Positions 3-63,855 of a DNA stretch of 64,000 nt are shown here, in pieces. Both the position numbers and the translations under genes were made by a program. The stretch covers positions 2,677 through 66,676 of the IMG/VR virus record IMGVR_UViG_3300017971_000041; one strand, written 5' to 3'. The stretch's first letter is position 1, and the number at the start of each line of letters is the position of its first letter. The notes under the pieces are model-generated. The model saw only the letters and a list, made by a program, of their open reading frames with translations, made no database searches and was not told the origin of the DNA. The stretch is from a virus.

Positions 3-1082
3 ATTTTTGAGAATAACGTCCAACTTGGCACAACCCGCGTGGCTACACTCGCAGATCGGGTTCTTCGGAACAATGAAATTTTCGAGTTGGTTGGTCATGA
101 AGGGAGTTTTAGAAATACCACGGTTAATGGTTCGGTAACAGGTGAGTCTCTGGACCTGGGTGTCATTGATGATCCGGTAAAAGGACGTGCTGAAGCAAAC
201 AGTAAAACGATTCAGGAAAAGACTTGGGATTGGTTTACAGACGATTTTTATACAAGATTTTCAGAATATGCTGGTTTATTACTGATTTTAACTCGCTGGT
301 CGGTTATGGATCTCGCGGCTCGGTTAAAAGAAAGCGAGCGAAATGTTAAAACGGTAACATTCCGAGCTATTGCTCAGGAGGATGAAGAACATCGAGAACG
401 GGGGGAGGCACTTTTCCCCGAACATAAATCGCTTGACTTCCTTAAAAAGCGAAAAAAGAAAATGTCCCTGCATAACTGGGAGGCTTTGTATCAACAGAAC
501 CCAGTATTAAAATCAGGAAACATTTTTAATTCTGACAATTGGAGATGGTACATTCGACTACCAGCTATTCGTTATAAGTTTATCGTCGTTGATACCGCCC
601 AGAAAAAGAATAACTGGAATGACTTTACAGACTTTCAATGCTGGGGTCATGGATATGACAATTGCATTTACTTGCTAGACCATGTCCATGACCGAATAGA
701 AGCACCGGAATTGAGGAAACTGGCTGAAGCGTTTTACCAGAAACACGATACTAAACGAATTGAACCCGACGACCCCCTACTCCGTGGTATTTGGATTGAG
801 GACAAGTCGTCTGGGATCGGGCTAATTCAGGAGCTTCGAAAGAAAAAATTAAAAGTCAATGCAATCCCCCGGTCCGTGGATAAAATTCAGAGAGCATTTG
901 ATACTACTCCTTATATCTCAGCTGGGCAGGTGTTTTTAAACGAAGACGTTAATAAAGTTGGAGTTATACTTGGAGAATCGGTTGTATTTCCAAATGGTCT
1001 TCATGACGACGCAATCGATAATGTAATGAATGCCATCGATGTGGCTTTTATTTCTGGAACCGATCAAATATTTATAGCATAA
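3..1082 (+). CDS. terL: Terminase large subunit, 5'-truncated by the window edge
   Basis: Frame is open from base 3. Walker B-like 'LGVIDDPVK', 'TRWS..DLA', nuclease motifs 'VDTAQK..NDFT', 'IEDKSSG', 'HDDAIDN'. Lies directly before the portal. Confidence 0.9.
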   Translation: MFENNVQLGTTRVATLADRVLRNNEIFELVGHEGSFRNTTVNGSVTGESLDLGVIDDPVKGRAEANSKTIQEKTWDWFTDDFYTRFSEYAGLLLILTRWSVMDLAARLKESERNVKTVTFRAIAQEDEEHRERGEALFPEHKSLDFLKKRKKKMSLHNWEALYQQNPVLKSGNIFNSDNWRWYIRLPAIRYKFIVVDTAQKKNNWNDFTDFQCWGHGYDNCIYLLDHVHDRIEAPELRKLAEAFYQKHDTKRIEPDDPLLRGIWIEDKSSGIGLIQELRKKKLKVNAIPRSVDKIQRAFDTTPYISAGQVFLNEDVNKVGVILGESVVFPNGLHDDAIDNVMNAIDVAFISGTDQIFIA

Positions 1083-1093
1083 TAGGAACTGAC

Positions 1094-2323
1094 ATGCTTA
1101 ATTGGTTAAAAAGAAGATTCGAATCACGAAATATGGCTCGTTCTACGGCAGTAGTTGAGTATTCTGGGCAGGGCAAAAAGAATGCCCCGATTTATAAAAA
1201 TTGGACAATTGCCAAAGCGGTCAAAGAGGGATTCAAATCAAATACTTGGGTATACCGATCCGTGGTTTTAATTACAGATGCGTGTTCGTCGGTTCCTTGG
1301 TCAGTATATAGGGACGACTCATTGTCAGATCCGCTGCCCGATCATGCATTGACTAAGCTTTTAAAAGCTCCGAATCCGAATTTCTCGAAGCAAGATATGT
1401 TTGAGATGTTGGTTAGTTGGTTGGAATTGTCCGGGAACTCATATTTTTATAAAACACAGGTCGATGCAAAAACGGTTGAACTCTGGCCCATCTCTCCAGA
1501 CTTAATTGTTCCTGTTACCCCGGCGAAAGTCGACGAATGGGTTGGGGGATATAAATTAACTCGGGAGAAAAATAAACGGAAAATAACATTTACGGCGGAT
1601 CAAATTATCCATCACAAATACTTTAACCCGGCCGATGCTTTATTGGGGATCGGTCCTCTTGAAATTGCAGGACCAGTAGTCGACATCGACAACGACCAAA
1701 AAGACTTTAACAAGGATGCGGCACAAAACCGTGGTATTATTGACGGCGTGTTTGCTTTCAAAAAAGATATTCCCGATCAAGATACAGCGGATGCACTTCG
1801 GGATCGAATTGAGGAGTCATATAAAAAGAAACGAAAAAATATCGTATTGGGCTCGGAGGCTAAATACATTCGAACGGCGATGACTCCAACTGAAATGGAT
1901 TTTACACAGTCTCGGAAAGATAATCGAGATGAAATTTTTATTACTTTCGGGATTCCACCGGCACTGGGTGGGTCGATGGATGCTTCTACTTACAATAACT
2001 ATCAAGTATCGGAATGGATTTTTTGGACTGCTACCATAATTCCGAAATTGAAAAAAATTGCTGATACTTTTAATTTGGCTTTTCGGGACGAGAAAAAGGA
2101 ACAAGAACAAATTGCTCCGATGCTCAATAAAGTTCCGGCAATACGTCAAATGGTTTCAGAAAAATCCAAAATTGCCGAGCGATTGTCAAAGGCTGGGATC
2201 CCCGTACAACAGATAAATCAGATTCTAGAGCTCGGAGTAAAGAAGTATAAGGGTTGGGATCAGCCATATAGGTCATCGTCGTCTGGTAACAATAAAAACC
2301 CAGACACCACGGAGGGCGAATAA
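1094..2323 (+). CDS. Portal protein, HK97 family
   Basis: 'VYRSV..I', 'L..PNP', 'LELSGNSY', 'LWPI.P', 'IIH..YFNP...GIGPL', 'FGIPP', 'TIIP'. Position after terL. Confidence 0.93.
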   Translation: MLNWLKRRFESRNMARSTAVVEYSGQGKKNAPIYKNWTIAKAVKEGFKSNTWVYRSVVLITDACSSVPWSVYRDDSLSDPLPDHALTKLLKAPNPNFSKQDMFEMLVSWLELSGNSYFYKTQVDAKTVELWPISPDLIVPVTPAKVDEWVGGYKLTREKNKRKITFTADQIIHHKYFNPADALLGIGPLEIAGPVVDIDNDQKDFNKDAAQNRGIIDGVFAFKKDIPDQDTADALRDRIEESYKKKRKNIVLGSEAKYIRTAMTPTEMDFTQSRKDNRDEIFITFGIPPALGGSMDASTYNNYQVSEWIFWTATIIPKLKKIADTFNLAFRDEKKEQEQIAPMLNKVPAIRQMVSEKSKIAERLSKAGIPVQQINQILELGVKKYKGWDQPYRSSSSGNNKNPDTTEGE

Positions 2324-2536
2324 GAGGCCCAGACAAGGGCCCAGACCCAGATTGAGGGTGAGGATGAGGGAAAACCCCAGACTCTGGGTGTTGAAATTGC
2401 TTTAAAACACGAAATTCGAGCTATTGATCAGGAGAAGGAACGTGAAACCCAGGCCCAGAAGGTCCTGTACCCAATTTTTAAACGTTACTTAAAATCAGTT
2501 AAGGACAAAATTGATGGTGTTTTTAAACAAAACCAG

Positions 2537-36629: not shown

Positions 36630-36630
36630 A

Positions 36631-38150: not shown

Positions 38151-38210
38151 AGTTCCCCCTTTCGACTAATGTCATGTATTCTCACGACATTAGTAGAAGT
38201 ATGATTTTTG

Positions 38211-38516
38211 TTATATGAAGCCCAGGTATTCGAACAATTGCTCAGGCGTAAAATCGTAGATCAGATATGTAGCCATAATATAATTTGCCTCGTCGACTGT
38301 CCACAATTGACTATAAAAGTTCAGTTGTGCAGCCAATAATAAGAGATTGTTCGTGTTGATGGATTTTTCCGAATGAGTTGCCAGGACCGCCTTAAAGCGG
38401 TCAATTTGCGAGAGAATGTCAGCGTCGGTAACAATATAACTCTCCATAAAGCAGTGTCGTTCCTTGTCCTTTAAAGCAGTGTAACGTCTTAATTCTTCTA
38501 CGTCCCGAAATTTCAT
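38211..38516 (-). CDS. Hypothetical protein
   Basis: RBS AAGGAGG. Confidence 0.65.
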   Translation of the reverse strand: MKFRDVEELRRYTALKDKERHCFMESYIVTDADILSQIDRFKAVLATHSEKSINTNNLLLLAAQLNFYSQLWTVDEANYIMATYLIYDFTPEQLFEYLGFI

Positions 38517-38531
38517 AATTCCTCCTTGTTG

Positions 38532-38951: not shown

Positions 38952-39082
38952 TGTGTTTCTCCTCGTTGTTAATTGTTACGTTGTTTATAATAGAGAAATC
39001 ACACAATGTCAACAAAAATCTTAGGAAATAAAAGCCAGATTCCGAATCCGGCTTTTATTTCCCCAACAACAACAACGACACA

Positions 39083-39613
39083 TTAAAACAGAGTGAGAAT
39101 ATGGTCCCAATATTCGATCCTGAAGACCCAGCCTCCGGGTTTTTCAGATTCGGGTAGCAAGTCAGATTCGTCTTCCCGGTATTTACGAAGGATTCGGCGA
39201 GTTTTAACCGGAGTTATTTTTAAATGATTAGCAATGTCTTTAACAGTAAAAGTTTCCACGGGGGTGGGATCTGGCTCGACAATCTCGTCCAGGTCGGTCA
39301 ATTCAGCTACCGCCTCTTCGTTCAGGGTATCAGCGAGTTCGATCAATTTTTCAGTCGTCCAGGTTTCCATCGGAGCAAACCAGTAAGTGCCCTCGGCATT
39401 TTTAATAGACGTTATCAGTTCCTCGCGGCAATTTTCAGTAGGGGTCGGTTTTTTGATTGTGGTCAGTTTTGCGGCCAGGACCTCGATTTTTTCGATCATA
39501 ACGGCTTTAGAATATTTACAAGATTTCAGAGGTTTCATTCCTGAAGATTGTCGCAGATTGTTTAGGTGGGCGAATATTTCTTTCGCGGTATTTGTCGTAT
39601 CGATCGTGGTCAT
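39083..39613 (-). CDS. Shared HTH-like C-domain protein (paralogue 6)
   Basis: 'FTVKDIANHLKITPVKTRRILRK...LP...GGWVF'. N-terminus related to paralogue 4. Promoter TTGACA-N17-TATACT at 39658-39686. Confidence 0.78.
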   Translation of the reverse strand: MTTIDTTNTAKEIFAHLNNLRQSSGMKPLKSCKYSKAVMIEKIEVLAAKLTTIKKPTPTENCREELITSIKNAEGTYWFAPMETWTTEKLIELADTLNEEAVAELTDLDEIVEPDPTPVETFTVKDIANHLKITPVKTRRILRKYREDESDLLPESEKPGGWVFRIEYWDHILTLF

Positions 39614-39717
39614 TGTTGCCTCCTGTGTTTGTTGAATTTGTTTCGTTTTGAAGATCCAGTATAAGAGACATTGATTGAGGTGTCAACACAAATCCCGGGT
39701 GTTGACACCTTTTTTTA

Positions 39718-40461
39718 TTATTTTACAATTTTCTTGATAACATCAGTTCGATATTTCATTTCCCATACCCAACGACCCGATTGGATCGGTTGTGGCAATT
39801 CGTTTTTCAATTTACGAATTTTGATTCTGAGTTTTTTCGCGGGGATTCCGAATTCTTTCGAAAGATCTTGGACAGAAAATGTTTCAGATGGGGATTCCAT
39901 GTTCTCATATGGATCGACGACTTTTGGTTTTACAGTTTTTGGATCGGGTGCAGGTTTTTGCGTTTGCGTTTGTGTTTGTTTCTGATGTTTGACCTTTTTA
40001 TTGACAATTGACAGATTCCTGCATCCACAACTTGCACAACGGGAATGAGCGATTTTATGACGAAAACGTTTTGTCAATTTGATTCGATAAGCAAGGGGTT
40101 TTTTACATCCCTCACAGACAACAACGTAATTAAAGGTAGGCCCGTCTCCAGCATTCGTCGTTCGGGTAGGCTCGGCCCCAATTCGTTTAGCAATTTGTTT
40201 CCAAACGTGGTCATGAGCAGAATAGCCACGGGTTTTGACGTCAATCATGTGAGCAATTTCATGCAAAATTACGTCTTCAAATTCTGGTTTTGGGAAGGTT
40301 CCTATGACGTGCGAGAATCTGACCTCGAGGACCTCTTTTGTGTCGCGAATGTATTTGACAGCGCCCATAGTTCTTTGTGCATTCGTCAAAATTATTGGGA
40401 TATTTTCAAATCCATGCATTTTCATCATTTTGCGGGCAGTGTAAGCAATGTCAGTCATCAT
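39718..40461 (-). CDS. SprT-like zinc metalloprotease fused to the shared HTH-like C-domain (paralogue 7)
   Basis: 'ILHEIAH...H...WK.IA..IGA.P', CxxC...CxxC, 'FSVQDLSKEFGIPAKKLRIKIRK...LP...GRWVW'. Promoter at 40502-40530. Confidence 0.85.
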   Translation of the reverse strand: MMTDIAYTARKMMKMHGFENIPIILTNAQRTMGAVKYIRDTKEVLEVRFSHVIGTFPKPEFEDVILHEIAHMIDVKTRGYSAHDHVWKQIAKRIGAEPTRTTNAGDGPTFNYVVVCEGCKKPLAYRIKLTKRFRHKIAHSRCASCGCRNLSIVNKKVKHQKQTQTQTQKPAPDPKTVKPKVVDPYENMESPSETFSVQDLSKEFGIPAKKLRIKIRKLKNELPQPIQSGRWVWEMKYRTDVIKKIVK

Positions 40462-44575: not shown

Positions 44576-45721
44576 TTATCTGCCAAGGTGTCTCTGGACG
44601 ATTTTATTTTGTTTGGCTAGTCGAACACATGAAGGCCGGTATCTGGGTCTCTCGGTCAAAAATGCATGAAATTGATCGATTAAGAAGCCCGGGAATTCAC
44701 ACGGGATACATCTCCCGGTTTGACGAATTAGCGTCCCATTCATGTTGTGGCGCCAGGTGCCATCGTCTTCAAGTTTTTCGGAATAAAAAATAAAGTCATC
44801 GGGAAAGCCCATGATTCGAGCTCGTTCACGGATCGTTGTTGGTAAGTTCGTTACTGGGTGAATGATCGGGTTGGTACCAATCAGTGTCGGGGAAGGCCCA
44901 TCGTACTTCGGTTTTCGAAAACCGAAATGGAATTTCTGTTCACCACGGTCATTGATATAATGTAGGGGTTTGTTGTCCTTTTTATCCCTGAAGATCTTTT
45001 GTACTTCTCCCCAGTTCATGGGTCCATCACGAAAAACCCGATTCCCAGCACGGGCTGAACTGTGGATTGAATGGAGAATATGGTTCGGCAACCTCCCGTG
45101 GCAGTCCTCAAGGTCCCGGATAACTTCTTTCAATGATTTCCCAATGTTGCGTTCGCCCGGCATGAATTGGTAGCCTAGATCGTGCAAGGAGGCAATAATA
45201 AACAGACGGTTCCGGTTCTTTTGGGAATTACCGTAGTGATAATTCGATACATATTCCACGTCAATGTGGTAATCAGGCAACAGAGATTTGTACAGCTCTG
45301 GCGGATTTGCTTCAAGGGATTTGGGAAGGTTGTCAAAGAAAGCAAACTTCGGTTTAATGACATTAACTATTCGAATCCATTCAAGAAACTCATCGGAGGC
45401 TTTCGATGCATACTCTTTACGTTCTGCCCCTGTTTTGTTGACGAGATTCGAATAGCGTCCACATTTCGGGTGTCCCCCGATAACATCGACCTTTCCAACC
45501 AAATCCTTTTTGATAAAGTCTGGCAGTTCGCTGTCTGATTTGACGAGCCAGGCGCCGGGGAAATTTTCGAGGAAGGTATTTCTGCCGTTTTCATCGAAGT
45601 GATGGCAAAACCCCCGAGGTTCAATGTTCCCATATAATTTATGGCCAGCTCTATGGGCATAAACGAATGGTGACCCGATTCCCGCATATACACCCAACAT
45701 TTTCAAAGGTCTTTCAATCAT
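44576..45721 (-). CDS. Divergent C5-cytosine DNA methyltransferase-like protein
   Basis: Motif I 'YAGIG', IV 'GGHPKCG.YS', VI 'FDNLP', VIII 'Q..RNRLF', IX 'TIRE.ARIMGFPDDF', X 'QTGRCIP'. Confidence 0.75.
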   Translation of the reverse strand: MIERPLKMLGVYAGIGSPFVYAHRAGHKLYGNIEPRGFCHHFDENGRNTFLENFPGAWLVKSDSELPDFIKKDLVGKVDVIGGHPKCGRYSNLVNKTGAERKEYASKASDEFLEWIRIVNVIKPKFAFFDNLPKSLEANPPELYKSLLPDYHIDVEYVSNYHYGNSQKNRNRLFIIASLHDLGYQFMPGERNIGKSLKEVIRDLEDCHGRLPNHILHSIHSSARAGNRVFRDGPMNWGEVQKIFRDKKDNKPLHYINDRGEQKFHFGFRKPKYDGPSPTLIGTNPIIHPVTNLPTTIRERARIMGFPDDFIFYSEKLEDDGTWRHNMNGTLIRQTGRCIPCEFPGFLIDQFHAFLTERPRYRPSCVRLAKQNKIVQRHLGR

Positions 45722-45778
45722 TATATTTTCTCCAAGTAACAAGCATTTAATTCGTTATGGTTCATGGGGGCCTTTTAT

Positions 45779-48311: not shown

Positions 48312-49946
48312 CTAAGATGGTATGTTTTCTTCTTTAGTTTCGTAGTATTTGGGAGACTTTTCAGGAGTCGCAAATTCAACTTCCTCGATTGACCAATAAC
48401 GCCCCCCGACAAATACTTTTATGCGGGCCGGAATTCGTAACTGACTACGGACTTTATACAATTCATCCACGGTGAGTGGCATCTTTTCAAGGCCTCCTGT
48501 GAAACGGAATAGTGTCCAATTTTTAGCTTTGGTTCGTGCATAGCCCTTGTGGTCGAGACAAATGTATTCAGTAACATAATTCAAACGGCATTTATAAATA
48601 ACTTTTAATGAATTTGGTTTTCCTGGTTTTTTATGGATTTTATAAAACACCTTATCTACATTGAGCCATTTTCGTTTCTTAGCTAAATCATTTTGAATGA
48701 TGTCCACGGTGTCTGCTTTAGTTTTGATTTTTTCTTTAAACACGAATTCGTGACCACAAACTGCACAGAAGCGAGTTAGTGTGTGGGTAATGACCATGCA
48801 TTTTGGACATTGTTTTGTTGGGGCTTTCCCTTTTTGTTTTTTACCTTTTGGTTTGGGAACAATCACATTATTAATAGGACCTAGTCGACTCGTGTTACCG
48901 GCAAAGTCAAGGACTAGACAATGGGTTTTCCCAGGGGCCATTCGCAATCCACGGCCGACCATTTGTACATGCAAGACAGCGCTTTTGGTCGGGCGCAATA
49001 GTACAATCAAATCAATGTTGGGGGCGTCAAACCCGGTGGTTACCATACCGACTGAAACTACACATCTGATTTCTTTGTTTTTAAATTGCTGAATGATTTC
49101 ATCACGATCTCCATTTACCTTTGTATGAAGAGCCCGGGATTTAATCCCCAGAGAATTTAACTCAGCTGTAATGTTTTCACAATGTTCGATATTGATAGCA
49201 AAAACCAACCAGGAATGGTAATTCCATTGGCCAATATCGACTGCCTCCTTAACAGCGGCCTTTGTAATCGAGAGCCGGTCGACCTTCTCAGCTAATTGTT
49301 TTTGATTAAAATCCCCAGCTGTGGTTTTCACCCCCGTGGTATCCAACTCATTTTTTGTTGCTCTGGAAATTAAATTGCATAAATAGCCATCAGTAATCAA
49401 TTTATTAAAGCTTTTAGTCGATGATAAATCATATGATAATTTATCGAATATTCGATCTTTGCCTTTATAAATGTATCCTATACCACGGCGGAATACTGTA
49501 GCTGACAATCCGACACATTTCGAATTAATGGCTGTTAAGAATTTTCGATACATTGACGAGCCCTTTGGTGGGATCTGGTGGCATTCGTCAATGATTGTTA
49601 AATCGAATTTCTTAAATTTGCTTGGGTGTCGGTAAACCGATTGAATTCCGGCAACAGTGATTTTTTGGATGTCTCGAATTTTCAGCCCAGAACTGTATAA
49701 ACCAATTGAAATGCCAGGGAAAAATTCACAAATGGCTTCATGGTTCTGGGTTAAAATTTCTTTTGTGGCAGCCAATACGAGAATATTTTTTTGTGGAAAT
49801 TTTTCCAAAAATTCATAGATGAATTGCCCCATTATAACTGTCTTGCCGGCTCCAGTAGGAACTGCTATTACTGGATTGTACTCTTCGACGTCCTGTAACA
49901 GTGCTTTAACTGCTTCTTGTTGATAATCTCGTGGTTCAAATCTCAT
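48312..49946 (-). CDS. SF2 DEAD/H helicase (RadD/YejH-like) with zinc finger
   Basis: Start MRFEPRDYQ. 'PTGAGKT', 'DECH', 'SAT', 'TTGFDAP', 'QMVGRGLR', CxxC...CxxC. Confidence 0.93.
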   Translation of the reverse strand: MRFEPRDYQQEAVKALLQDVEEYNPVIAVPTGAGKTVIMGQFIYEFLEKFPQKNILVLAATKEILTQNHEAICEFFPGISIGLYSSGLKIRDIQKITVAGIQSVYRHPSKFKKFDLTIIDECHQIPPKGSSMYRKFLTAINSKCVGLSATVFRRGIGYIYKGKDRIFDKLSYDLSSTKSFNKLITDGYLCNLISRATKNELDTTGVKTTAGDFNQKQLAEKVDRLSITKAAVKEAVDIGQWNYHSWLVFAINIEHCENITAELNSLGIKSRALHTKVNGDRDEIIQQFKNKEIRCVVSVGMVTTGFDAPNIDLIVLLRPTKSAVLHVQMVGRGLRMAPGKTHCLVLDFAGNTSRLGPINNVIVPKPKGKKQKGKAPTKQCPKCMVITHTLTRFCAVCGHEFVFKEKIKTKADTVDIIQNDLAKKRKWLNVDKVFYKIHKKPGKPNSLKVIYKCRLNYVTEYICLDHKGYARTKAKNWTLFRFTGGLEKMPLTVDELYKVRSQLRIPARIKVFVGGRYWSIEEVEFATPEKSPKYYETKEENIPS

Positions 49947-49990
49947 AGTTTTCCTCCATTGTGTTAGTATATCATGGAGAGTTAACGTTG

Positions 49991-50395
49991 TCAATAGAAA
50001 AGTTTCCCGGTCAATAAAAACAATAACCGATTCCAAAAGCCCAGATTTTTAATTCGCCGGATAGTTTTTTCGAGATCCGCGATTTCTGTAAGGTTCAAAG
50101 CCTCTTTTATTTTTAATGAATCGACTTCATAACTCAATTGACTTAACGAATGGAGGGGAATATTCAACAATTTATGTACTCGTTCAGTAAAACCAATATA
50201 AACAGGCTCCTTCTGTCCAGCAAAATAAAACGGCTGGGGATAGACCTTTTCAACTTGCGTCTTCGGTTTCGTTGACAAATCTGTGATATGGTTTGAAGTC
50301 AAATAGGGAGCTATGGTTTTGGTCAATACTTCGGTTCCAGCCACATTGTGAGTCTCTATTGTTTTGATATCAGTAATTATAATTGCTTTTTTCAT
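49991..50395 (-). CDS. Hypothetical protein
   Basis: 134 aa. Confidence 0.55.
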   Translation of the reverse strand: MKKAIIITDIKTIETHNVAGTEVLTKTIAPYLTSNHITDLSTKPKTQVEKVYPQPFYFAGQKEPVYIGFTERVHKLLNIPLHSLSQLSYEVDSLKIKEALNLTEIADLEKTIRRIKNLGFWNRLLFLLTGKLFY

Positions 50396-52194: not shown

Positions 52195-53031
52195 TTACCT
52201 TTTGTATTCGTGTTTAATGGATTTTAACAATTTATAATGTTGACACCCCAGACGTTGTTGATCGGTTACGAGCTGTAAGTCATCGTAATAGGAGCACTTC
52301 CATCGACCCTCAGGATGTAAGTCCAGATAATCACAGGTGCGACAATTACGCTCCACATGAGCATTACCGTGGCAAATTGCATTAGCATCGCAAAATCGGC
52401 ACTCAAACCATGTAGGTTTGAATTTTTTGGGCGGCGGGTCCTCAGATAAAATGATTCGTTCAGCTTTTCGCTCCAGATCCTGAGCATATCCCTTGTCAAG
52501 TTTCACCCGTTCGAAGTACATGGCATCTGTATTTTTATTGACTGCGATGAACATGGCGCGGGTCAATTTCAATTTATACATGTAAATTTGCATTTGGGCA
52601 TAATAAACAGGCTTTGAAACTTTGACACTGCGGGTCTTTGAAATCTCTTTAAAATACTTATCACTCATGGTTTTGTATTCCATAAGGTGTACAGTTTTGG
52701 GAGCTTCAACAATGCCCAGACCCTTGCCATCACAATGACCTTTACAATGCCCAAATCCCAAAACAACTTCAGCTTGGTCATCAAATGTCTGGATTCCGAT
52801 TTTTGCGAGTTCAGCTTCAATCGCCGGCTCTTCGCGGTGTCCACGGTTGAAGAGACGTTTCAGACGTGCGGGAATTTCTCGATTGTAGCACCAACGAAAC
52901 GAATACCAAAGATACCGGTCACATGAATGGCCCAATTTCGAACAGCCCAGATAGGGCCTCAGTTCCCCTGGCTCAGTTAGTTCCTCAATTTTTGCAGCTG
53001 TCGTGTTTTTAAATTTTGTTAATTGTACCAC
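52195..53031 (-). CDS. Cas4-like PD-(D/E)xK nuclease
   Basis: 'YLGCS.LGH.C.R.LWY.FRW', 'GHCDG', 'EYKT', 'YYAQMQ.YM', C-terminal CxxC...C cluster. Confidence 0.85.
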   Translation of the reverse strand: MVQLTKFKNTTAAKIEELTEPGELRPYLGCSKLGHSCDRYLWYSFRWCYNREIPARLKRLFNRGHREEPAIEAELAKIGIQTFDDQAEVVLGFGHCKGHCDGKGLGIVEAPKTVHLMEYKTMSDKYFKEISKTRSVKVSKPVYYAQMQIYMYKLKLTRAMFIAVNKNTDAMYFERVKLDKGYAQDLERKAERIILSEDPPPKKFKPTWFECRFCDANAICHGNAHVERNCRTCDYLDLHPEGRWKCSYYDDLQLVTDQQRLGCQHYKLLKSIKHEYKR

Positions 53032-54550: not shown

Positions 54551-55048
54551 TTATTTTTTCATCCACGGTGGGGTTTTTGACTTGCCCTCGGCAGCTGTAG
54601 AAGGTCCGGCAGCCGTCGTGCTTTCGTCGCCCGGTTGGTAGTCGCCGGTATATTTCCCGTATAAGGTGATTTTATTCGATTCCGGATAAGCGGCCGTGGC
54701 TTTTGTTTTTCCGACCTTCAGGCTCATCGGGATCCCATGCAATTCTTCGGAGTCCTCGACTGCGACTTTTTCACAGGCCTGGCAAATGGAATTCATGGTT
54801 TTGTTGGCAATTTGCACGGCGACCGGGTTCGGATTGTCGAGATTGAGCTTGTCGAACAGGATTCGGCCTTTATACTTGCCATCAATAATACGAATCTGGA
54901 GATCCAGATATGATCCGTCGCCGGCTTTCGTCTTTTTCATCTGTGATTTGACAATCATGCCAGCATAGTCTCCTACTGGGATTGCCGAGTAGTCATTCAT
55001 GCCTTCATTATTGTTTTCGGTATTTGCGGGGGTAAACAGTCTTGCCAT
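54551..55048 (-). CDS. DUF669-like ssDNA-binding protein
   Basis: 'IP.G.Y...I', 'YKGR..FD.LNL', 'AVQIA', 'DSEELH..P', C-terminal 'PPW'. Confidence 0.82.
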   Translation of the reverse strand: MARLFTPANTENNNEGMNDYSAIPVGDYAGMIVKSQMKKTKAGDGSYLDLQIRIIDGKYKGRILFDKLNLDNPNPVAVQIANKTMNSICQACEKVAVEDSEELHGIPMSLKVGKTKATAAYPESNKITLYGKYTGDYQPGDESTTAAGPSTAAEGKSKTPPWMKK

Positions 55049-55354: not shown

Positions 55355-56149
55355 TTATACTTTTTCTTCCGTTTCATCGGTTTCCTCAATTGTTTCTTTT
55401 TCTTCTCCCGGGAGTGGTGCGTCTGAAGTCGGTTCGGTTTTGCGGCGTTCTTCATTTTCGGCCCTAACTTTCGGCCCAGTCAGAATTTTTTCAAAAATAG
55501 CGGTCAAGTTCGGGGGCTCGATCTCGGCCAATTTGCCGGATCGGTCTTTCCCATCATAACGTAAATCCGCATAAGTTTGCAGGTACCGGTAAACCGTCCC
55601 GTCTTCGGTTTTCCCAAGACGCAGCGGGAAAACCTCGTCGAAGAAGAAGGGCAAGCCGTTAAGCAACTGTTTACCAGGCATGCTCGGCTTATATGACGTA
55701 ACGCCGGAAGCTTCATCGGTGAAAGTAACCTGTTTGGCTGAGAAATAAACATTTTTCCCGTGCAAATCTCTGAAAGCACGAATCATGCCAGACATGGTAT
55801 CAGCCAGTCGGCCATATGCCTGGCGGGGATCGCGTTCTTCTCCCTTAAATTGGGATAACATAACTTCAGCGATTTCTGTAACCGAGTCCAAGCATAACGT
55901 GTAGTATTGTTTGGCTTCGTCGGATCGCTTTGCCCACTCGTAGATTTCGAACACGTCATCCACGGATTTGACTTCGATATACGGGATGTTTTTGTCCTGC
56001 AGAGACAGCAATCCAGATTCTGCGGAAATGATGATTGGTCCGGGGGCGGATGATGCCAGCACCGTTTTTCCGTAGCCGGCGGGCGAAAATACCAGACACT
56101 TGACTCCATTTAGGCCATAATCCTTAGTCGTTTGGATTTTTATTGCCAT
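55355..56149 (-). CDS. AAA_24/Sak4-like phage ATPase
   Basis: Start MAIKI. 'PAGYGKT', 'SAESGLLSL', 'DSVTEIAE', 'DPRQAYG', 'KDRSGKL'. Confidence 0.88.
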   Translation of the reverse strand: MAIKIQTTKDYGLNGVKCLVFSPAGYGKTVLASSAPGPIIISAESGLLSLQDKNIPYIEVKSVDDVFEIYEWAKRSDEAKQYYTLCLDSVTEIAEVMLSQFKGEERDPRQAYGRLADTMSGMIRAFRDLHGKNVYFSAKQVTFTDEASGVTSYKPSMPGKQLLNGLPFFFDEVFPLRLGKTEDGTVYRYLQTYADLRYDGKDRSGKLAEIEPPNLTAIFEKILTGPKVRAENEERRKTEPTSDAPLPGEEKETIEETDETEEKV

Positions 56150-56319
56150 TCTTGATTTCCTCCAATTGGTCTTCGAGTTCTTGACATATTTCAATAATCC
56201 AGGTGCGGGTCGCACAATCAAGGTTACCAAAATGGTGATTGTAATTGTACTCTCTCTGGATTTTACGATTGATTTTATGAAATATTTTTTTACCCATTTT
56301 CTATACCATTGATAGATAT

Positions 56320-60426: not shown

Positions 60427-60540
60427 TAGCATAACGTTCATGTTCCCGTGAATACTGCAGAGAAACCGCTGGAATTGGCCCCCGGCGGTTTTTCCATTTC
60501 CCGGGGACCTAGACATCAACCAGAAGGCAATAGAAAGGAA

Positions 60541-62967
60541 ATGTCTATGCAAGCCGTATTTGTTGGGAACAGAAACGCAAGTGGCAACCCAAGTGCACTA
60601 TTAAAACGACACACTGTTAATGATTTTTCTGATTTTTGCAAACAATTTTTAGAAACATGTTCAGCTGGGTCAAAAAGCAATACTTACCTAACAATTGCCG
60701 ATAACGTAAGAATAACCCCCGGAAATCCAGATAAACCCAACTCTTACCTTGGAACCGACCATTACCATCGAAACAATCTCTCCCAATTATCCGCTTGGTT
60801 ATTACCGTTCGATGGAGACAATTCAAAATCAAAGCCAGGGTCGTGCATTGACCCAAAGCTTGTTCATGAGACTCTTAAGAGATTAAATCTTACTCACTGC
60901 ATTTATACGACCCATTCGCATATAACCGGCAAACGCAATCGATGGCGTCTTTTTCTGCCTTGCAAATTGAAAGGTCCTAACGAACTAAGAGCCACGGTTG
61001 AAGATTTATACAAAATGTTAGTTCGATATGGGTGTAAAGATTTAGCACCTACCACGGAGAGTAAGACATGGTCACAGCCGTGGTTTCTGCCAACACGGAC
61101 AGATCCCTCTGACGGGCACTTTCAGTACTTTATTTATACCAAAGGTGTTGAATACGTCGCAGTTAAAGGACCCAAACCGAGCAAAGATTCTCATGACCAA
61201 CGTACCGATTTTGACCAGACAGCTTCCGATATTCTCGAAGTAATTAAATATGGCCTTGACGGATTACATCCGGCAATGAATAAATTCATTTATGGAGCGG
61301 TTCGCGATGGACGTCCGCCTGCATGGATTAAAGCTGAATTGCATGTATTGACTTCTGACTATGATCCAGCCGATAAGCGCCTCATGGGTCGTAAGAAAGA
61401 CATTGATCGATTGGTCGATTATGCTTGTAAAAAACATGATGCCAGCTGTGGTATCGATGACGATACTGACTACACAGATTATGAATATGACTGCGAGGAA
61501 ACAGAACTCGGGGACGATGAAAAATCTCCATCCGAACTGGGACACACAATTTTCCCTGATCAAGGGGGACAAATGGAAAAGCTCGTTGAATATGCAATGG
61601 ACTGGATGCTGTTCCCTGATCGAAGCATTGCAACTGTAGCTGCTCATGCGTTGATCTCTGTGCTGGGAGGTCGAGTCTATTCATACGATGAAGAACACGG
61701 GGGAACTGGAATCGTATATACTGCCTTAGTTACCGGGGATTCCACGGTTGGTAAGTCGAATATGAGGAAGTTCTGTGCTCACATGTTTAATAGTTTTTCA
61801 AAATTCAGCCCCGAAGCTTTTCACGACTTTAACGGGGCTTTTTACTATACATCCGTCAAAAACTTTTTGAAAGACTTGGAACGAACGGGCTCTATTATAT
61901 CATTTCGAAGTGAGTCAGGACAAACGGACATGTCACAAGCCGGTGATATGCCGAGAGTTCGGGCTTTTGAACTCGAACTTGCAACCAATTCTGGTATACT
62001 AGGATCTGTATCCGCTGGGGGTCAGAATGACCGAATACGAGCCCTATGTTCACCCGCGGTAACTACGATTCGGGAGTCAGTCGCAGAAATCCAAAACGAA
62101 GCTGACATGATGTTAAAAACATCGATAAATGGGATGGCGGGACGTCGGTCTCATATCATTTTACCCAAACATCGCGGCTACAAAACTAAAAGCAATGTCA
62201 ATATTCCGACACATTTTGTGTCCATGATGACAGAAATGTATGCCCGGGCTACTAAAGAACGTAATGACATTTATCGGTATTTGGCAAAAGATAAATGGAT
62301 CGTTCTTAACTATGAAAAAGATAGCTATTTGGACGAAAAGGAAAATCATTGGATCAAGAAATATAATGAATATGCTGACCACGGGGATGACTATATGCGT
62401 ACCTTCTATGGTCGTTTGTTTGAAAAGGTCCCTGCCTATGCGGGACGTCTCGCTGTTACTGATGACTGGAACCACCCCGTGGTGACAACTGACCATATTG
62501 ATATCGCTGAAAGGTCCCTGTTGGCTGAAGCTAAGGCTTTTCGTAATCGGGAAACCAAAGAAACAACCGGTGATTTGGTGGCTGAACGAATAAGCTCGAT
62601 TATGGCTAACCGGATCCTAACACTAAAATCATTGCGGACTATGACTACTAAGCCGCGAAAAAATGAAACAAAAGCTCAATTTGCTGCCCGGAAACAGAGA
62701 ATAAAACGAGACTTTGAAAAAATGGTTTGTGAAGGTTGCGTTCCTAGAGCACGATTGTTTAATATGTTACAATCCACCGAACATTTTCGGAATTTAAAAG
62801 CTGAACAGAACTACGAATACAAGCTCGATCGATCGCTAAGCAATTTAGGAATCGTGCCCGTCCCCCGGAAATTGGCTGTGGACCGTTACAACTTTTCAAA
62901 AAAAGTCTATACGTGCAACCCTAAAATCATTACTCTCATTGATACCAAGTATAAATTCTGCAAATAA
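60541..62967 (+). CDS. AEP-type primase-polymerase fused to a P-loop helicase-like domain
   Basis: 'LPFDGD', 'YTTHSH', 'RWRLFLP', 'SQPWFLP', Walker A 'GDSTVGKS'. Start after GAAAGGA. Confidence 0.8.
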   Translation: MSMQAVFVGNRNASGNPSALLKRHTVNDFSDFCKQFLETCSAGSKSNTYLTIADNVRITPGNPDKPNSYLGTDHYHRNNLSQLSAWLLPFDGDNSKSKPGSCIDPKLVHETLKRLNLTHCIYTTHSHITGKRNRWRLFLPCKLKGPNELRATVEDLYKMLVRYGCKDLAPTTESKTWSQPWFLPTRTDPSDGHFQYFIYTKGVEYVAVKGPKPSKDSHDQRTDFDQTASDILEVIKYGLDGLHPAMNKFIYGAVRDGRPPAWIKAELHVLTSDYDPADKRLMGRKKDIDRLVDYACKKHDASCGIDDDTDYTDYEYDCEETELGDDEKSPSELGHTIFPDQGGQMEKLVEYAMDWMLFPDRSIATVAAHALISVLGGRVYSYDEEHGGTGIVYTALVTGDSTVGKSNMRKFCAHMFNSFSKFSPEAFHDFNGAFYYTSVKNFLKDLERTGSIISFRSESGQTDMSQAGDMPRVRAFELELATNSGILGSVSAGGQNDRIRALCSPAVTTIRESVAEIQNEADMMLKTSINGMAGRRSHIILPKHRGYKTKSNVNIPTHFVSMMTEMYARATKERNDIYRYLAKDKWIVLNYEKDSYLDEKENHWIKKYNEYADHGDDYMRTFYGRLFEKVPAYAGRLAVTDDWNHPVVTTDHIDIAERSLLAEAKAFRNRETKETTGDLVAERISSIMANRILTLKSLRTMTTKPRKNETKAQFAARKQRIKRDFEKMVCEGCVPRARLFNMLQSTEHFRNLKAEQNYEYKLDRSLSNLGIVPVPRKLAVDRYNFSKKVYTCNPKIITLIDTKYKFCK

Positions 62968-62983
62968 CACACCCCCACGCGAT

Positions 62984-63025
62984 AAAAGGGGACACATTGT
63001 CTTTAGACAGTGTGTCCCCTTTTTT
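62984..63025. terminator. Bidirectional intrinsic terminator
   Basis: AAAAGGGGACAC / GTGTCCCCTTTT. Confidence 0.8.
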
Positions 63026-63855
63026 ATTTCTACTCGAAATTTCCCCTATTTACATGCCTAACAGTTGAATCTGGGTCTGGGTTTTCACGTTGTCGATAGA
63101 AAATTCATGAGTCTGGGTCCGGGTTTCACTGTCGAAGAACGTTGTTTTTGGAGCAAAATAACAAAAAAAAGCGATAAACACGCCATTTTGAATATGTAGA
63201 AAAAATTTCTTAACCGACAAAAATGTAATTTTTCAAAATTCACAAACAATTGTGTAACTATTAAGGACCCAGATTCGTCAAAAAACCCCAGATTTTAAGA
63301 AAATTTGCGTCCAGATCTGGGGTTTTTCAGTCGTCGATATCGCCAGATAAAAAATCTGGGAAATTATAACTCGTTAAAATCATTCAAAATACAAAATCAT
63401 GAAAAAAAGTGCTGACGATTCTCAATGATTTTACATAGTTACCTGATTTGTGCGCGAAACCAATATTTTTGGTACACTATCCGAAAAAACCCATTTGGAC
63501 CGATATTCGTAATAATTTCACATATTTACGAGTCCAATGCTACCAACACAAATTTTGTCGGGTGCGTGTGCGCGCGACGGTGCGCCGCGCGGCGATTTTT
63601 TGTTCGTGCATTTTTTTTTGCCACGGTTGGCATGTAAGTTGCAAGGGGCGTTTGTCAATGCGTTAAAAAAGGTGTTTTGGTATTGTTGGATAATATAAAT
63701 ATATATGTCGAGATATATAACATACTCAAATGATTGAAAATATGATCCAGATAAACCGACAAATGGAATCGACATATGCGCAGGACCATATTGTCAACAG
63801 TTTATCCCATGTGATTTCAACATGTTACACACACAAACCGTGGAATTCCTTATGA

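What the first reader, a model, noticed from the sequence alone, without database searches (positions are those of the whole stretch)
118..63843. Genome-wide over-representation of the asymmetric hexamer CCACGG/CCGTGG
Seen: I counted about 100 copies by eye on both strands (e.g. 118, 782, 874, 1260, 1729, 2307, 10906, 10957, 26173, 26203, 31139, 31191, 32127, 32170, 32232, 32278, 53449, 53462, 63621, 63838). That is roughly one per 640 bp, against about 12 expected from base composition at ~40% GC. Copies fall in different reading frames and in non-coding DNA. The palindromic siblings CCATGG and CCGCGG do not look similarly enriched. Inference: a selected, evenly dispersed DNA tag. It could be the target of the divergent methyltransferase at 44576, a binding site for the seven-member HTH family (self-DNA marking or compaction), or a host Chi/KOPS-like signal.
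Basis: partly seen in the sequence, partly recalled or inferred. Interest (0 to 1): 0.85.

Follow-up and report, generated by a model that had tools for sequence, protein, structure and literature searches.

The report
Evenly spaced CCACGG word, likely priming sites
This uncultured marine phage has written the six-letter word CCACGG into both DNA strands about every 1.3 kb by choosing particular codons, most likely as start signals for its own DNA primase, which would mean the starting points of DNA copying are spelled out in the genome.

Summary
CCACGG/CCGTGG occurs 101 times (51+/50-), against 21-28 expected under dinucleotide, codon-permutation and synonymous-codon shuffles (z 16-20). It is the most enriched hexamer in the window. 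It fills 96 of 340 amino-acid contexts that could encode it (19 expected), in four frame/orientation classes, with no one-per-gene effect.

New here: copies of the same orientation keep apart, so strands alternate (67 switches of 100; 50.5 expected).

Related phages over-represent related words: YCCACG and TCCACT. Two cultured phages of different host orders (Vibrio, Cronobacter) carry a distant homologue of this phage's primase-helicase but no methyltransferase or HTH-family homologue. Both show the same signature with one shared word, AGCGGA(A). On the complementary strand all these words share G-Y-G-G.

GTG and GTGG are the published template sites of AEP primases (pRN1, phage NrS-1). The window's 839-aa primase models as an AEP domain plus helix bundle.

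Best reading (about 0.45): an extended primase initiation site, template 5'-CC|GTGG-3'.

This scan has noted similar words in other phages before. One such reading was later marked as fallen, with no details shown.

The parts
118..63843 (.). 101 copies of CCACGG/CCGTGG (51 on +, 50 on -). Mean spacing is 637 bp overall, about 1.26 kb per strand. The weak extended form on the CCACGG strand is T-W-CCACGG-n-n-G-n-G-G.
   Evidence: Coordinates. Nulls. Flanks against a codon-aware null: at -1, C 1 vs 11.3 and A 51 vs 35.2; at +5, G 44 vs 21.8. Spacing and strand alternation.
60448..62967 (+). Primase-helicase, the proposed reader. It has an AEP-like catalytic domain (invariant DxD and SxH), a helical bundle (about residues 255-340 of the ORF) and a P-loop NTPase C-terminal part. 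The database form starts 33 codons downstream (806 aa).
   Evidence: PHROG 3022 'DNA primase', E 6e-15. No Pfam, NCBIfam or PDB sequence hit. 15 homologues, invariant D90-G-D92 and S125-H126. AF2 pLDDT 74.8. Foldseek top rows are AEP prim-pols at weak E, 0.008-0.17. VIA: S-2L PrimPol Z 6.9, Prim-PolC 6.7, LigD pol 6.6, RepB' 6.5 over residues 1-210; residues 223-305 match helical bundles. The Walker A reading (GDSTVGKS) is mine, from the translation.
55355..56230 (-). AAA_24 (Sak4-like) protein. Part of the replication/recombination module shared with the cultured phages that show the same word signature.
   Evidence: Pfam PF13479, E 3.7e-22. 39-43% identical homologues in L141 and L142.
54551..55048 (-). 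DUF669 protein. Its counterpart in phage HD01's record is annotated as ssDNA-binding protein.
   Evidence: Pfam PF05037, E 1e-15. Shared with L141 and L142.
52195..53031 (-). Cas4-domain (RecB-family) exonuclease. Candidate partner in the rival 'phage-encoded helicase-nuclease' reading.
   Evidence: PHROG 1990, E 2.5e-84. Shared with L141 and L142.
48312..50036 (-). SF2 helicase (ResIII + Helicase_C).
   Evidence: Pfam and PHROG hits. 38-41% identical homologues in L141 and L142.
44576..45742 (-). Atypical C5-cytosine methyltransferase-like protein (motif IV GHPKCG, motif VI DNL).
   Evidence: Pfam PF00145, E 1.2e-14. Aligns to M.HaeIII. Orthologues at 61-63% keep these motifs. No homologue in L141 or L142.
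26744..40461 (.). Seven paralogues sharing a C-terminal MerR-like winged-helix domain: 26744-27133(-), 27190-27651(-), 31504-31875(+), 32809-33342(-), 38532-38951(-), 39083-39613(-), 39718-40461(-, with an SprT-like N-terminus). A rival reader.
   Evidence: blastp and HMM. Model pLDDT 86.7. Weak Foldseek rows: CbpM, pSK1 Par, RacA, CarH, BldC. One copy each in G001 and G038; no convincing copy in 36 other records. None in L141 or L142.
31964..32283 (.). Local cluster of 5 copies in 320 bp of mostly non-coding DNA.
   Evidence: About 0.7 copies are expected at the mean density. Not significant after allowing for the number of such windows (my estimate).

Best explanation
CCACGG is the duplex footprint of an extended initiation site for the phage's own primase-helicase (60448-62967). 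That protein looks like an AEP-type primase with a helix-bundle domain fused to a P-loop NTPase.

In this model the single-stranded template reads 5'-CC|GTGG-3'. GTGG is the recognition element. As in pRN1 ORF904 and NrS-1 PrimPol, synthesis would start opposite the first base 5' of it. The primer would then begin GG and continue through the G-rich flank (GGnnGnGG).

A strict 6-7 nt site occurs by chance only every 4.5-6 kb per strand. Selection, acting mostly through synonymous codon choice, has raised it to one per about 1.3 kb on each strand and kept same-strand copies apart. That is an Okazaki-fragment-like grid usable whichever strand is the lagging template.

Shown: the excess; DNA-level selection; per-strand regular spacing; a conserved core with drifting flanks in relatives; retention of sites between sister genomes; the same signature in cultured phages that share the primase module but not the methyltransferase or HTH genes; and an AEP-like model of the primase.

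For: (1) DNA-level selection. 101 copies vs 21-28 expected. 96 of 340 synonymous contexts are used vs 19.3 expected. Both orientations relative to genes are enriched (39 vs 10.8; 57 vs 12.5). Position within genes is uniform and there is no one-per-gene effect (41 genes with no site vs 40.2 expected).

(2) Orientation-specific regular spacing. 67 strand switches of 100 vs 50.5 +/- 5.0 (P 0.0004). Against a null drawn from the possible contexts, 64 vs 49.6 +/- 4.8 (P 0.0014). CV on + is 0.60 vs 1.01 (P 0.0002); on - it is 0.80 vs 0.98 (P 0.06). Median nearest same-strand neighbour is 787 bp vs 309 bp for the opposite strand. CCACGG ranks first of 110 control hexamers for excess switching.

(3) Only the exact unit is selected. 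Of the 16 CCAC+NN words, only CCACGG is raised (3.6x); the others range 0.49-1.40. ACCACGG is 51 vs 9.8 and CCCACGG 1 vs 3.2. CCACGG....G is 44 vs 6.1.

(4) Relatives. Contigs with the same replication module over-represent CCAC-core words. G001: CCACG 93 vs 47.7, TCCACG 39 vs 16.1, CCCACG 37 vs 13.8. L099: TCCACT 19 vs 6.8, TTCCACT 9 vs 0.9. L127, L129, L130, L131 and L098 behave likewise. The best NCCACN z is 5.5-10.3 in the 5 clade loci of 14 kb or more, against a maximum of 4.7 in 64 other loci. Between sister genomes 79-90% identical, sites are retained at 0.45-0.67, against 0.14-0.33 for hexamers of the same GC content.

(5) Homologues of this primase occur in G001 and G002 only, out of 38 related records, and in 0 of 14 near-complete others.

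(6) Cultured phages with a distant homologue covering the AEP and bundle region (24-26% identity over residues 76-483). Vibrio phage VA-RY-3: AGCGGA 84 vs 18.4, AGCGGAA 48 vs 5.9. Cronobacter phage Ss1: 59 vs 17.3 and 35 vs 6.1. Both carry the word on both strands, with switches 58 vs 40.0 +/- 4.4 and 39 vs 29.1 +/- 3.8 and per-strand CV 0.59-0.72. With the window they share only the primase, AAA_24, DUF669, Cas4 exonuclease and SF2 helicase (plus 47067 in one of them), not the methyltransferase or the HTH domain.

(7) Stenotrophomonas phage Salva: the top 7-mer is TGTGGTC, 37 vs 10.7, with switches 24 vs 17.8 (P 0.02) and per-strand CV 0.63-0.67.

(8) On one strand the words read CC-GTGG-W, C-GTGG-R, A-GTGG-AA, T-GTGG-TC and A-GCGG-AA.

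(9) Literature, passages read. pRN1 AEP primase makes primers only on templates with GTG and starts 5' of it (PMC2965215). NrS-1 PrimPol: 5'-GTGG-3' and 5'-GTGA-3' are the most efficient sites, with initiation at the first base upstream (PMC8718748). Effective T7 primase sites are larger than GTC and their spacing fits Okazaki sizes of 1-6 kb (PMC8599759).

(10) The AEP-like fold and conserved DxD/SxH motifs of the window protein.
Against: No biochemical or in vivo data exist for this enzyme.

The fold matches are middling (Z 6-7; Foldseek E 0.008 or weaker), a range the tool itself says may mean only a common arrangement. The family profile shows no sequence relationship to the NrS-1 primase (probability 2.3%).

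NrS-1 itself, where GTGG is the proven site, shows no enriched GTGG-based word (GTGG 181 vs 173; best NGTGGN z 3.2). So AEP priming does not by itself produce such a word.

GTGG alone already occurs 365 times in the window. The enzyme would therefore have to need 6-7 nt, longer than any site documented in the papers I read except the 8-nt NrS-1 site.

Salva and HD01 primases match the window protein only in the C-terminal NTPase part. HD01 has the same module, yet its top word (ACCTGC, 101 vs 40) shows no alternation (37 switches vs 50.4).

Strand alternation is not significant in the sister contigs (L097 31 vs 29.4; L035 15 vs 16.5; L029 14 vs 20.4; L127 15 vs 11.7; L099 11 vs 8.9).

In L099-type and Ss1-type words the first primer base would be a pyrimidine, which is unusual for primases as far as I recall.

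Co-occurrence of the word with the primase is confounded with phylogeny: the methyltransferase orthologue and the HTH domain mark the same clade.

An earlier finding of this scan with the same kind of reading carries the mark 'its bold reading fell'; no details were shown.
Confidence: 0.45

Rival explanations
1. A Chi-like control or loading signal for a tracking helicase-nuclease encoded by the phage itself (SF2 helicase 48312-50036 with Cas4/RecB-family exonuclease 52195-53031, working with the Sak4-like protein and SSB). Each correctly oriented copy would stop degradation or start recombinase loading, so copies are needed in both orientations at regular intervals.
For: Orientation-specific regular spacing is what a one-dimensional tracking enzyme predicts. 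The helicase, exonuclease, AAA_24 and DUF669 genes are, with the primase, the only genes shared with the cultured phages that show the same signature. HD01, Salva and NrS-1 also carry helicase plus RecB-like nuclease. The Ss1-type word begins with AGCGG, which I recall as the Bacillus subtilis AddAB Chi (recalled, from no call). Chi-rich phages are documented (PMC12315714, sections 15 and 18 read).
Against: The helicase is SF2 (ResIII/DEAD), not the SF1 type of RecBCD/AddAB (family assignment of the latter recalled). I know of no sequence-regulated nuclease of this kind in phages. HD01 and NrS-1 have the same genes but no such word. The GTGG core has a direct precedent in primases, not in nucleases.
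Confidence: 0.17
2. Binding sites that tag the genome for the seven-member family of proteins carrying one MerR-like winged-helix domain on different N-terminal modules.
For: Seven paralogues with a conserved second helix, including invariant R29 and R33. Confident small winged-helix model, with weak matches to multi-site DNA binders: RacA, BldC, pSK1 Par. The domain occurs in G001 and G038, which also carry CCAC-core words, and not convincingly in 36 other records. Weak flank preferences extend the site to about 12 bp.
Against: No such domain is found in VA-RY-3 or Ss1, which show the same signature with a related word. Same-orientation copies repel while opposite-orientation copies sit close (23 vs 50 of 101 have such a neighbour within 300 bp), which orientation-blind binding does not predict. 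Only 5 of 101 copies are intergenic. Fold matches have E of 0.046 or weaker.
Confidence: 0.1
3. Target of the atypical C5-methyltransferase-like enzyme at 44576-45742, kept frequent because the mark (or a further modification) protects or labels each strand.
For: A short asymmetric C-rich word is the usual form of a methyltransferase site (general knowledge). Orthologues at 61-63% identity, with a more variable middle region, accompany drifting CCAC-core words. The gene sits in a conserved nucleotide-metabolism operon.
Against: Cognate sites of phage methyltransferases are not known to be enriched (recalled). There is no depletion of deamination products: CTACGG 16 vs 15.7, CCATGG 12 vs 15.7, CCACAG 22 vs 19.7, CCACGA 22 vs 20.8. 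25 loci (of 10 kb or more) with homologues at 41% identity or less show no common pattern. VA-RY-3 and Ss1 have the signature but no homologue. The motif IV proline and motif VI glutamate are replaced, so activity itself is uncertain.
Confidence: 0.08
4. A host-derived signal: the Chi of the unknown host's RecBCD/AddAB, a KOPS-like or uptake-like word, or the host primase's site.
For: [quoted passage not shown] If the genome is circularly permuted, ends fall anywhere, and both orientations would then be useful (my inference; only a 49-nt terminal overlap of the assembly was seen).
Against: There is no polarity or end clustering, unlike LLS (20 of 23 on one strand) and MD8 (32 of 32). The phage has its own Rec-type module, the class that mostly lacks Chi in that paper. 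In the analogous case one word is shared by phages of Vibrio and Cronobacter. The host is unknown: portal relatives in genome bins carry mixed labels.
Confidence: 0.07

Closest known systems
Template recognition sites of helix-bundle AEP primases: pRN1 ORF904 (5'-GTG-3') and phage NrS-1 primase-polymerase (5'-GTGG-3'/5'-GTGA-3', also 5'-TTTGGTTA-3'). PMC2965215 and PMC8718748; passages read.
   Same: The complement of the enriched word contains GTGG. The window encodes a primase whose model looks like an AEP domain plus helical bundle fused to an NTPase. Initiation just 5' of the motif would make the remaining CC, and the G-rich flank, the start of the primer.
   Different: Those sites are 3-4 nt (or a single 8-nt site) defined in vitro. 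No genome-wide enrichment or spacing is described in the passages I read, and NrS-1's own genome shows none. Here the selected unit is 6-7 nt, saturates both strands and is evenly spaced per strand. No sequence similarity to the NrS-1 enzyme was detected.
Extended primase-DNA recognition sequences of phage T7 gp4 (GTC plus flanks). PMC8599759; passages read.
   Same: The idea that the effective site is longer than the core and that its spacing sets Okazaki fragment length (1-6 kb in T7). Flank composition affects primer length.
   Different: T7 gp4 is a zinc-finger/TOPRIM primase, not an AEP (recalled). Enrichment by codon choice is not reported in the passages I read.
Chi-rich phages: P1, lambdoid LLS and Pseudomonas phage MD8. 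PMC12315714; abstract and sections 15 and 18 read.
   Same: A short host-enzyme signal becomes the most frequent word of a phage genome, at one per about 1.9 kb, through selection.
   Different: Chi is strongly one-stranded and clustered near one end, and is typical of phages without their own Rec module. Here the count is 51+/50-, there is no end clustering, and the phage has its own Sak4-like/SSB/exonuclease genes.
Stoperators of cluster A mycobacteriophages (dispersed asymmetric repressor sites; recalled, from no call).
   Same: Dozens of copies of an asymmetric word spread through a phage genome and read by a phage protein.
   Different: As I recall, stoperators are 13 bp, mostly intergenic and oriented with transcription. 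Here the word is 6-7 bp, 96 of 101 copies lie inside ORFs, and both orientations are enriched.
Over-representation of CCWGG in E. coli through Dcm/Vsr very-short-patch repair (recalled, from no call).
   Same: A C5-methyltransferase target that is more frequent than expected.
   Different: That mechanism depletes the T-containing neighbours. No such depletion is seen here, and I found no Vsr-type hit among the 50 ORFs scanned against Pfam. Not all ORFs were scanned.

Membership tests
Primase (AEP, helix-bundle type) recognition/initiation site | The genome encodes an AEP primase with a helix-bundle domain | tested here: inconclusive
   PHROG 'DNA primase'. Invariant DxD and SxH in 15 homologues. 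AEP entries dominate the Foldseek and VIA lists for residues 1-210 but at weak scores (E 0.008 or weaker; Z 5.9-6.9). Residues 223-305 model as a helical bundle. No Pfam, NCBIfam or PDB sequence hit.
Primase (AEP, helix-bundle type) recognition/initiation site | The site contains the GTG/GTGG element known from characterised AEP primases | tested here: met
   CCGTGG (window), CGTGGR (G001), AGTGGAA (L099) and TGTGGTC (Salva) contain it; AGCGGAA (VA-RY-3, Ss1) differs by one transition. Published sites.
Primase (AEP, helix-bundle type) recognition/initiation site | Read on single strands: both strands carry sites, each at replication-scale intervals, independent of genes | tested here: met
   51+/50-; about 1.26 kb per strand. 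Strand alternation and per-strand CV of 0.60 and 0.82. No gene-position effect. Replicated in L141, L142 and L144 but not in the sister contigs.
Primase (AEP, helix-bundle type) recognition/initiation site | Primers start next to the site in vitro or in vivo | not testable with these tools
   Needs a primase assay or nascent-strand 5'-end mapping.
Primase (AEP, helix-bundle type) recognition/initiation site | The word follows the primase across phages, independently of other genes | tested here: inconclusive
   Homologues occur only in G001 and G002 of 38 records. VA-RY-3 and Ss1 share the primase region but not the methyltransferase or HTH. However, four other module genes are shared too. Salva and HD01 match only the NTPase part, and HD01 lacks the signature.
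Chi (RecBCD/AddAB hotspot) accumulated by a phage | Strong strand polarity and clustering towards a genome end | tested here: not met
   51+/50-; 3-10 copies per 4-kb bin. Compare LLS (20 of 23) and MD8 (32 of 32).
Chi (RecBCD/AddAB hotspot) accumulated by a phage | The phage lacks its own recombination module | tested here: not met
   AAA_24 (Sak4-like), DUF669 and a Cas4-domain exonuclease are present.
Chi (RecBCD/AddAB hotspot) accumulated by a phage | The word is the host's Chi (enriched and skewed in the host chromosome, recognised by its enzyme) | not testable with these tools
   The host is unknown.
Cognate site of a phage C5-methyltransferase | The word tracks the enzyme and is modified | tested here: inconclusive
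   It tracks 61-63% orthologues, but this is confounded with the clade. The signature exists without the enzyme in L141 and L142. Modification is not testable here: only contigs were available.
Cognate site of a phage C5-methyltransferase | Deamination/VSP footprint: T-containing neighbours depleted | tested here: not met
   Neighbour ratios 0.76-1.11 for the five possible products.
Dispersed operator/stoperator-type protein binding sites | Mostly intergenic or promoter-associated, with one orientation relative to transcription | tested here: not met
   5 of 101 copies are intergenic. Both orientations are enriched: 3.6x and 4.6x.
KOPS/architecture-imparting polar sequences | Strand skew that switches at a defined point | tested here: not met
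   13+/24- in 1-26163 and 38+/26- beyond. This follows gene orientation and matches the codon-aware null: anti fraction 0.59 observed vs 0.53 expected.

The most novel reading that the evidence does not exclude
The start points of discontinuous DNA synthesis are hard-wired into this phage genome. A strict 6-7 nt initiation site for its AEP-type primase-helicase (template 5'-CC|GTGG-3') has been written into both strands, every ~1.3 kb, by codon choice. Related 'dialects' (CGTGGR, AGTGGAA, TGTGGTC, AGCGGAA) co-evolve with the primase in other phage lineages, whatever their host. Genome sequence and primase specificity would then form a co-adapted pair, readable directly from sequence.
Probability: 0.4. 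Interest if true: 0.85.

Novelty: new variant of a known kind. Interest (0 to 1): 0.7.

Why it matters
If the reading holds, primase specificity could be read from a phage genome alone, as the most over-represented strand-alternating word.

Okazaki-fragment layout would then be partly encoded in the sequence. Synonymous sites in these phages would carry a replication code that constrains codon usage, recombination between phages and genome engineering: recoding could cripple replication.

It would also give a sequence marker that links uncultured phages by replication machinery rather than by host.

Two cultured phages (Vibrio phage VA-RY-3 and Cronobacter phage Ss1, word AGCGGAA) make the idea directly testable at the bench.

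In my four relevant searches I found no paper describing such genome-wide enrichment. The same kind of word has, however, been noted repeatedly by this scan in other phages, so within the scan this is a further case with a new word.

Tried and rejected
**Mutational by-product or VSP repair.** None of the 18 one-mismatch neighbours is depleted beyond ratio 0.61 or enriched beyond 1.31. Rejected.

**Translation-level cause (codon pairs or peptides).** The excess is spread over four frame/orientation classes and survives synonymous shuffling. Rejected.

**One site per gene or per transcript.** 41 genes with no site vs 40.2 expected; position in gene is uniform (KS p 0.50). Rejected.

**Link to the second word CCCAGA.** Nearest-neighbour distances are not shorter than random: median 372 vs 262, and 8 vs 12.5 pairs within 50 bp. 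That word is clustered (CV 1.21) and does not alternate. It is a separate phenomenon.

**Motif-free first 2,676 nt of the genome.** Only 8 possible contexts, 2.2 copies expected. Not notable.

**A 'CYRCGR' family of words tied to the methyltransferase.** I proposed this. It did not hold in the 25 analysed loci carrying homologues at 41% identity or less. Dropped.

**Close relatives.** None were found. The best portal identity outside this genome is 51%. megablast against phages found nothing. The first viral scan gave 2 loci.

**Host inference.** The protein atlas gave only viral or mixed taxa. The genome-contig scan gave 12 bins with mixed labels. One tRNA-Pro was found and not used further. 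The host remains unknown.

**Sequencing runs.** 2 holders, both contigs of sediment/seawater metagenomes, both possibly the source and of nearly equal content. Laid on 44001-64000 they show 2 single-base differences, neither in a CCACGG copy. This gives no information on modification or microdiversity. No RNA holder is listed.

**NrS-1 positive control.** No enriched GTGG word.

**HD01.** It has an enriched word but without alternation.

**hhalign of the primase family profile.**
- Against NrS-1 primase: no match.
- Against Salva and HD01: C-terminal part only.

**Foldseek.** Both models gave no row with E at or below 0.001.

**Literature.** Searches for the word itself returned only primers and SSRs. 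Searches for over-represented phage hexamers or primase-site enrichment returned nothing on point. Supplementary files were not opened; Supplemental Table S3 of PMC12315714 (Chi counts per phage) may bear on the Chi comparison.

**Not used.** Complex prediction, the search of protein representatives and the listing of cluster members.

**ORF set.** The ORF set used for the nulls is a crude longest-ORF call. At least one call is on the wrong strand: 31516-31890(-) should be 31504-31875(+). The dinucleotide null does not depend on it.

Full report
**What is there.** The window is 64,000 of the 66,676 bases of a single-contig phage genome.

- Structural genes: terminase, HK97-type portal, protease and tape measure.
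- Replication genes: family A polymerase, SF2 helicase, ATP-dependent ligase, an 839-aa 'DNA primase' and a C5-methyltransferase-like gene.
- Recombination genes: AAA_24 (Sak4-like), DUF669 and a Cas4-domain exonuclease.
- Nucleotide metabolism: two thymidylate-synthase homologues, a dCMP deaminase and a dUTPase_2-like protein.

Only two public runs hold it, both metagenomes of sediment or seawater. No close relative exists in the collections searched: the best portal identity is 51%.

| Null | Expected |
|---|---|
| Dinucleotide shuffle | 21.3 +/- 4.8 |
| Codon permutation | 21.7 +/- 4.0 |
| Synonymous-codon shuffle (keeps all proteins) | 28.1 +/- 4.4 |

CCACGG is the top hexamer under all of these and under a maximal-order Markov model.

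- The excess is carried by codon choice: 96 of the 340 amino-acid contexts that could spell the word do so, against 19.3 expected.
- For example, 14 of 28 X-His-Gly contexts and 21 of 46 X-Arg-Gly contexts are used.
- Both orientations relative to genes are raised: 39 vs 10.8 and 57 vs 12.5.
- One-mismatch neighbours are neither raised nor clearly depleted.
- Among the 16 words CCAC+NN, only CCACGG is raised.
- Beyond what coding context explains, position -1 avoids C (1 vs 11.3) and prefers A. Positions +3, +5 and +6 prefer G (at +5, 44 vs 21.8; p 6e-7).

**Spacing.**
- Copies are more even than chance: CV 0.78 vs 0.98 for uniform placement, and 0.81 vs 1.05 for random choice among possible contexts.
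- The evenness is a per-strand property. Consecutive copies change strand 67 times out of 100, against 50.5 +/- 5.0 expected (P 0.0004).
- With a null drawn from the possible contexts, it is 64 vs 49.6 (P 0.0014), with CV 0.60 on + (P 0.0002) and 0.80 on - (P 0.06).
- The nearest same-strand copy is at a median of 787 bp; the nearest opposite-strand copy is at 309 bp.
- CCACGG ranks first of 110 equally frequent control hexamers for this alternation.
- There is no one-per-gene effect.
- Same-orientation copies are thus mutually redundant while opposite ones are not. This points to something that reads one strand, or one direction, at a time.

**Relatives.**
- Eighty loci around portal homologues do not share the CCACGG excess. 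Most have top hexamers at z 4-6 under the codon-aware null.
- A sub-group does resemble the window. It shares the window's replication module, with methyltransferase orthologues at 61-63%, polymerase and helicase at 54-56%, and primase at 39-43%.
- G001 (L035+L097, 35.8 kb): CCACG 93 vs 47.7, TCCACG 39 vs 16.1, CCCACG 37 vs 13.8, CCACGG 37 vs 14.2.
- L099: TCCACT 19 vs 6.8 and TTCCACT 9 vs 0.9.
- The short contigs L127, L129, L130, L131 and L098 behave the same way.
- The best NCCACN z is 5.5-10.3 in the five clade loci of 14 kb or more, and at most 4.7 in 64 other loci of 12 kb or more.
- Between sister genomes 79-90% identical, these words are retained at 0.45-0.67, against 0.14-0.33 for hexamers of equal GC content. 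The words are therefore under purifying selection in the relatives too.
- Strand alternation is not significant in these smaller data sets.

**Who reads it.** Three candidate readers mark the same clade, so co-occurrence cannot separate them:
- the methyltransferase orthologue;
- the winged-helix family, with 7 copies in the window, one each in G001 and G038, and none convincing in 36 other records;
- the primase, found in G001 and G002 only, out of 38 records.

**The separating evidence: cultured phages.** tblastn with the primase found nine records.

- Vibrio phage VA-RY-3 and Cronobacter phage Ss1 match over residues 76-483, the predicted catalytic and bundle region.
- They infect hosts of different orders (host names from the records; orders are my knowledge), yet they have the same top word.

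| Phage | AGCGGA | AGCGGAA | Strand switches |
|---|---|---|---|
| VA-RY-3 | 84 vs 18.4 (z 22) | 48 vs 5.9 | 58 vs 40.0 +/- 4.4 |
| Ss1 | 59 vs 17.3 | 35 vs 6.1 | 39 vs 29.1 +/- 3.8 |

- In both, the word is on both strands along the whole genome, with per-strand CV 0.59-0.72.
- With the window they share only the primase, AAA_24, DUF669, the Cas4 exonuclease and the SF2 helicase (plus 47067 in one). They share neither the methyltransferase nor the winged-helix domain.
- Stenotrophomonas phage Salva has TGTGGTC at 37 vs 10.7, with alternation (P 0.02).
- Five of six other enriched words in unrelated loci do not alternate. The exception is a near-palindrome (the palindrome explanation is my inference).

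**The words compared.** Written on one strand they are CC-GTGG-W, C-GTGG-R, A-GTGG-AA, T-GTGG-TC and A-GCGG-AA.

**Mechanism proposed.**
- The pRN1 AEP primase primes only on templates containing GTG, and starts 5' of it (PMC2965215).
- For the phage NrS-1 primase-polymerase, 5'-GTGG-3' and 5'-GTGA-3' are the most efficient sites, with initiation at the first base upstream (PMC8718748).
- The window's primase has invariant DxD and SxH motifs in 15 homologues.
- Its model gives AEP enzymes as the recurrent matches for residues 1-210, followed by a helical bundle.
- With the template read as 5'-CC|GTGG-3', the primer would begin GG and run into the G-rich flank. That would explain why CCAC must be followed by GG, and why +3, +5 and +6 prefer G.
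- A 6-7 nt site is rare by chance, so selection would have to create the grid of about 1.3 kb per strand. That spacing is within Okazaki-fragment range (compare 1-6 kb for T7; PMC8599759).

**Weaknesses.**
- The fold evidence is only middling, and no sequence relation to NrS-1's enzyme is detectable.
- NrS-1's genome shows no enriched word.
- Salva and HD01 match only the NTPase part of the protein, and HD01 lacks the signature.
- Four other genes are shared along with the primase, so a phage-encoded helicase-nuclease reading a Chi-like signal remains a serious rival.
- Nothing here is experimental.

**Relation to known things and to this scan.**
- Chi-rich phages are the closest documented case of a selected genome-wide word. 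They differ in polarity, end clustering and the absence of a phage Rec module.
- I found no paper on genome-wide enrichment of primase sites.
- After reaching this reading, I found that the scan had noted similar strand-regular words in other phages (TGTGGGCA, TGTGGTTA, GAACCAA, TGCGG and others), also read as primase sites.
- Those are unchecked AI notes, not independent support. One of them is marked 'its bold reading fell', without details.

**Verdict.** The best-supported mechanism is an extended initiation site for the phage's own primase (about 0.45).

Noticed in passing
window 598-63360: A second over-represented word, CCCAGA/TCTGGG: 85 vs 43-44 expected. CCAGAC is 69 vs 33 and CCCAGAC 37 vs 12. 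Unlike CCACGG it is clustered (CV 1.21), does not alternate strands (39 switches vs 41.8) and is not placed near CCACGG. It is not enriched in G001 or L029.
   Followed up: partly
L035 and L029 (records G001, G002): These relatives carry their own second word, CTGCGA/TCGCAG: 27 vs 6.5 and 24 vs 6.3, on both strands. It is confined to the structural half (5 vs 6.3 in L097). It is retained in 22 of 33 sites between the two genomes, against 0.33 for same-GC hexamers. No alternation.
   Followed up: partly
L141 (MW900438.1) and L142 (KM058087.1), whole genomes: Vibrio phage VA-RY-3 and Cronobacter phage Ss1 share the heptamer AGCGGAA at 6- to 8-fold excess, on both strands and with strand alternation. 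Because both are cultured, this is a bench-testable case of the same phenomenon.
   Followed up: partly
L144 (MW393850.1, 10001-60000) and L143 (PQ437329.1, 1-50000): Phage Salva: TGTGGTC 37 vs 10.7, with alternation. Phage HD01: ACCTGC 101 vs 40, with fewer strand switches than random (37 vs 50.4), that is, runs on one strand. The HD01 word looks like a different kind of word.
   Followed up: partly
window 42990-46976 and 50443-52192: A conserved nucleotide-metabolism block: dCMP deaminase, a TS homologue (68-73% identical in relatives, the best-kept gene of the module), an atypical C5-methyltransferase-like gene, a dUTPase_2-like gene and a thymidylate-kinase-like gene. It also includes a second TS homologue and a dNMP kinase. 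This suggests a modified pyrimidine in the DNA. I did not determine which one.
   Followed up: partly
window 44576-45742: The methyltransferase-like protein has GHPKCG in place of the usual PC motif IV, and DNL in place of ENV. All four 61-63% orthologues keep these changes exactly, so the protein is a conserved variant and not a decayed gene.
   Followed up: partly
window 31100-32420: A regulatory-looking region with repeated promoter-like units (TTGACA ... TATATAT) and ATAGCTAGCTAT palindromes. It holds a + strand ORF at 31504-31875 with a terminator, which a longest-ORF call misplaces on the - strand. Five CCACGG copies lie within 31964-32283.
   Followed up: partly
window 39718-40461: One winged-helix paralogue carries an SprT-like metalloprotease N-terminus. 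Two others (26744-27133 and 31504-31875) share a different N-terminal module.
   Followed up: no
genome ends (G000 1-123 and last 120 bases); window 63878-63993: The first 49 bases of the genome repeat exactly at its end, and bases 8-123 recur 116 nt long near the end. Short high-depth contigs (43-63x against 11-12x) lie at 63878-63988. This points to a repeat or a circular or terminally redundant assembly.
   Followed up: no
L107, L065: Two more distant relatives over-represent CCWGG-type words (CCTGGA 64 vs 26.3; CCTGGC 42 vs 18.0). No alternation.
   Followed up: no
window 57346-57419: tRNA-Pro (TGG) on the - strand, the only tRNA found.
   Followed up: no
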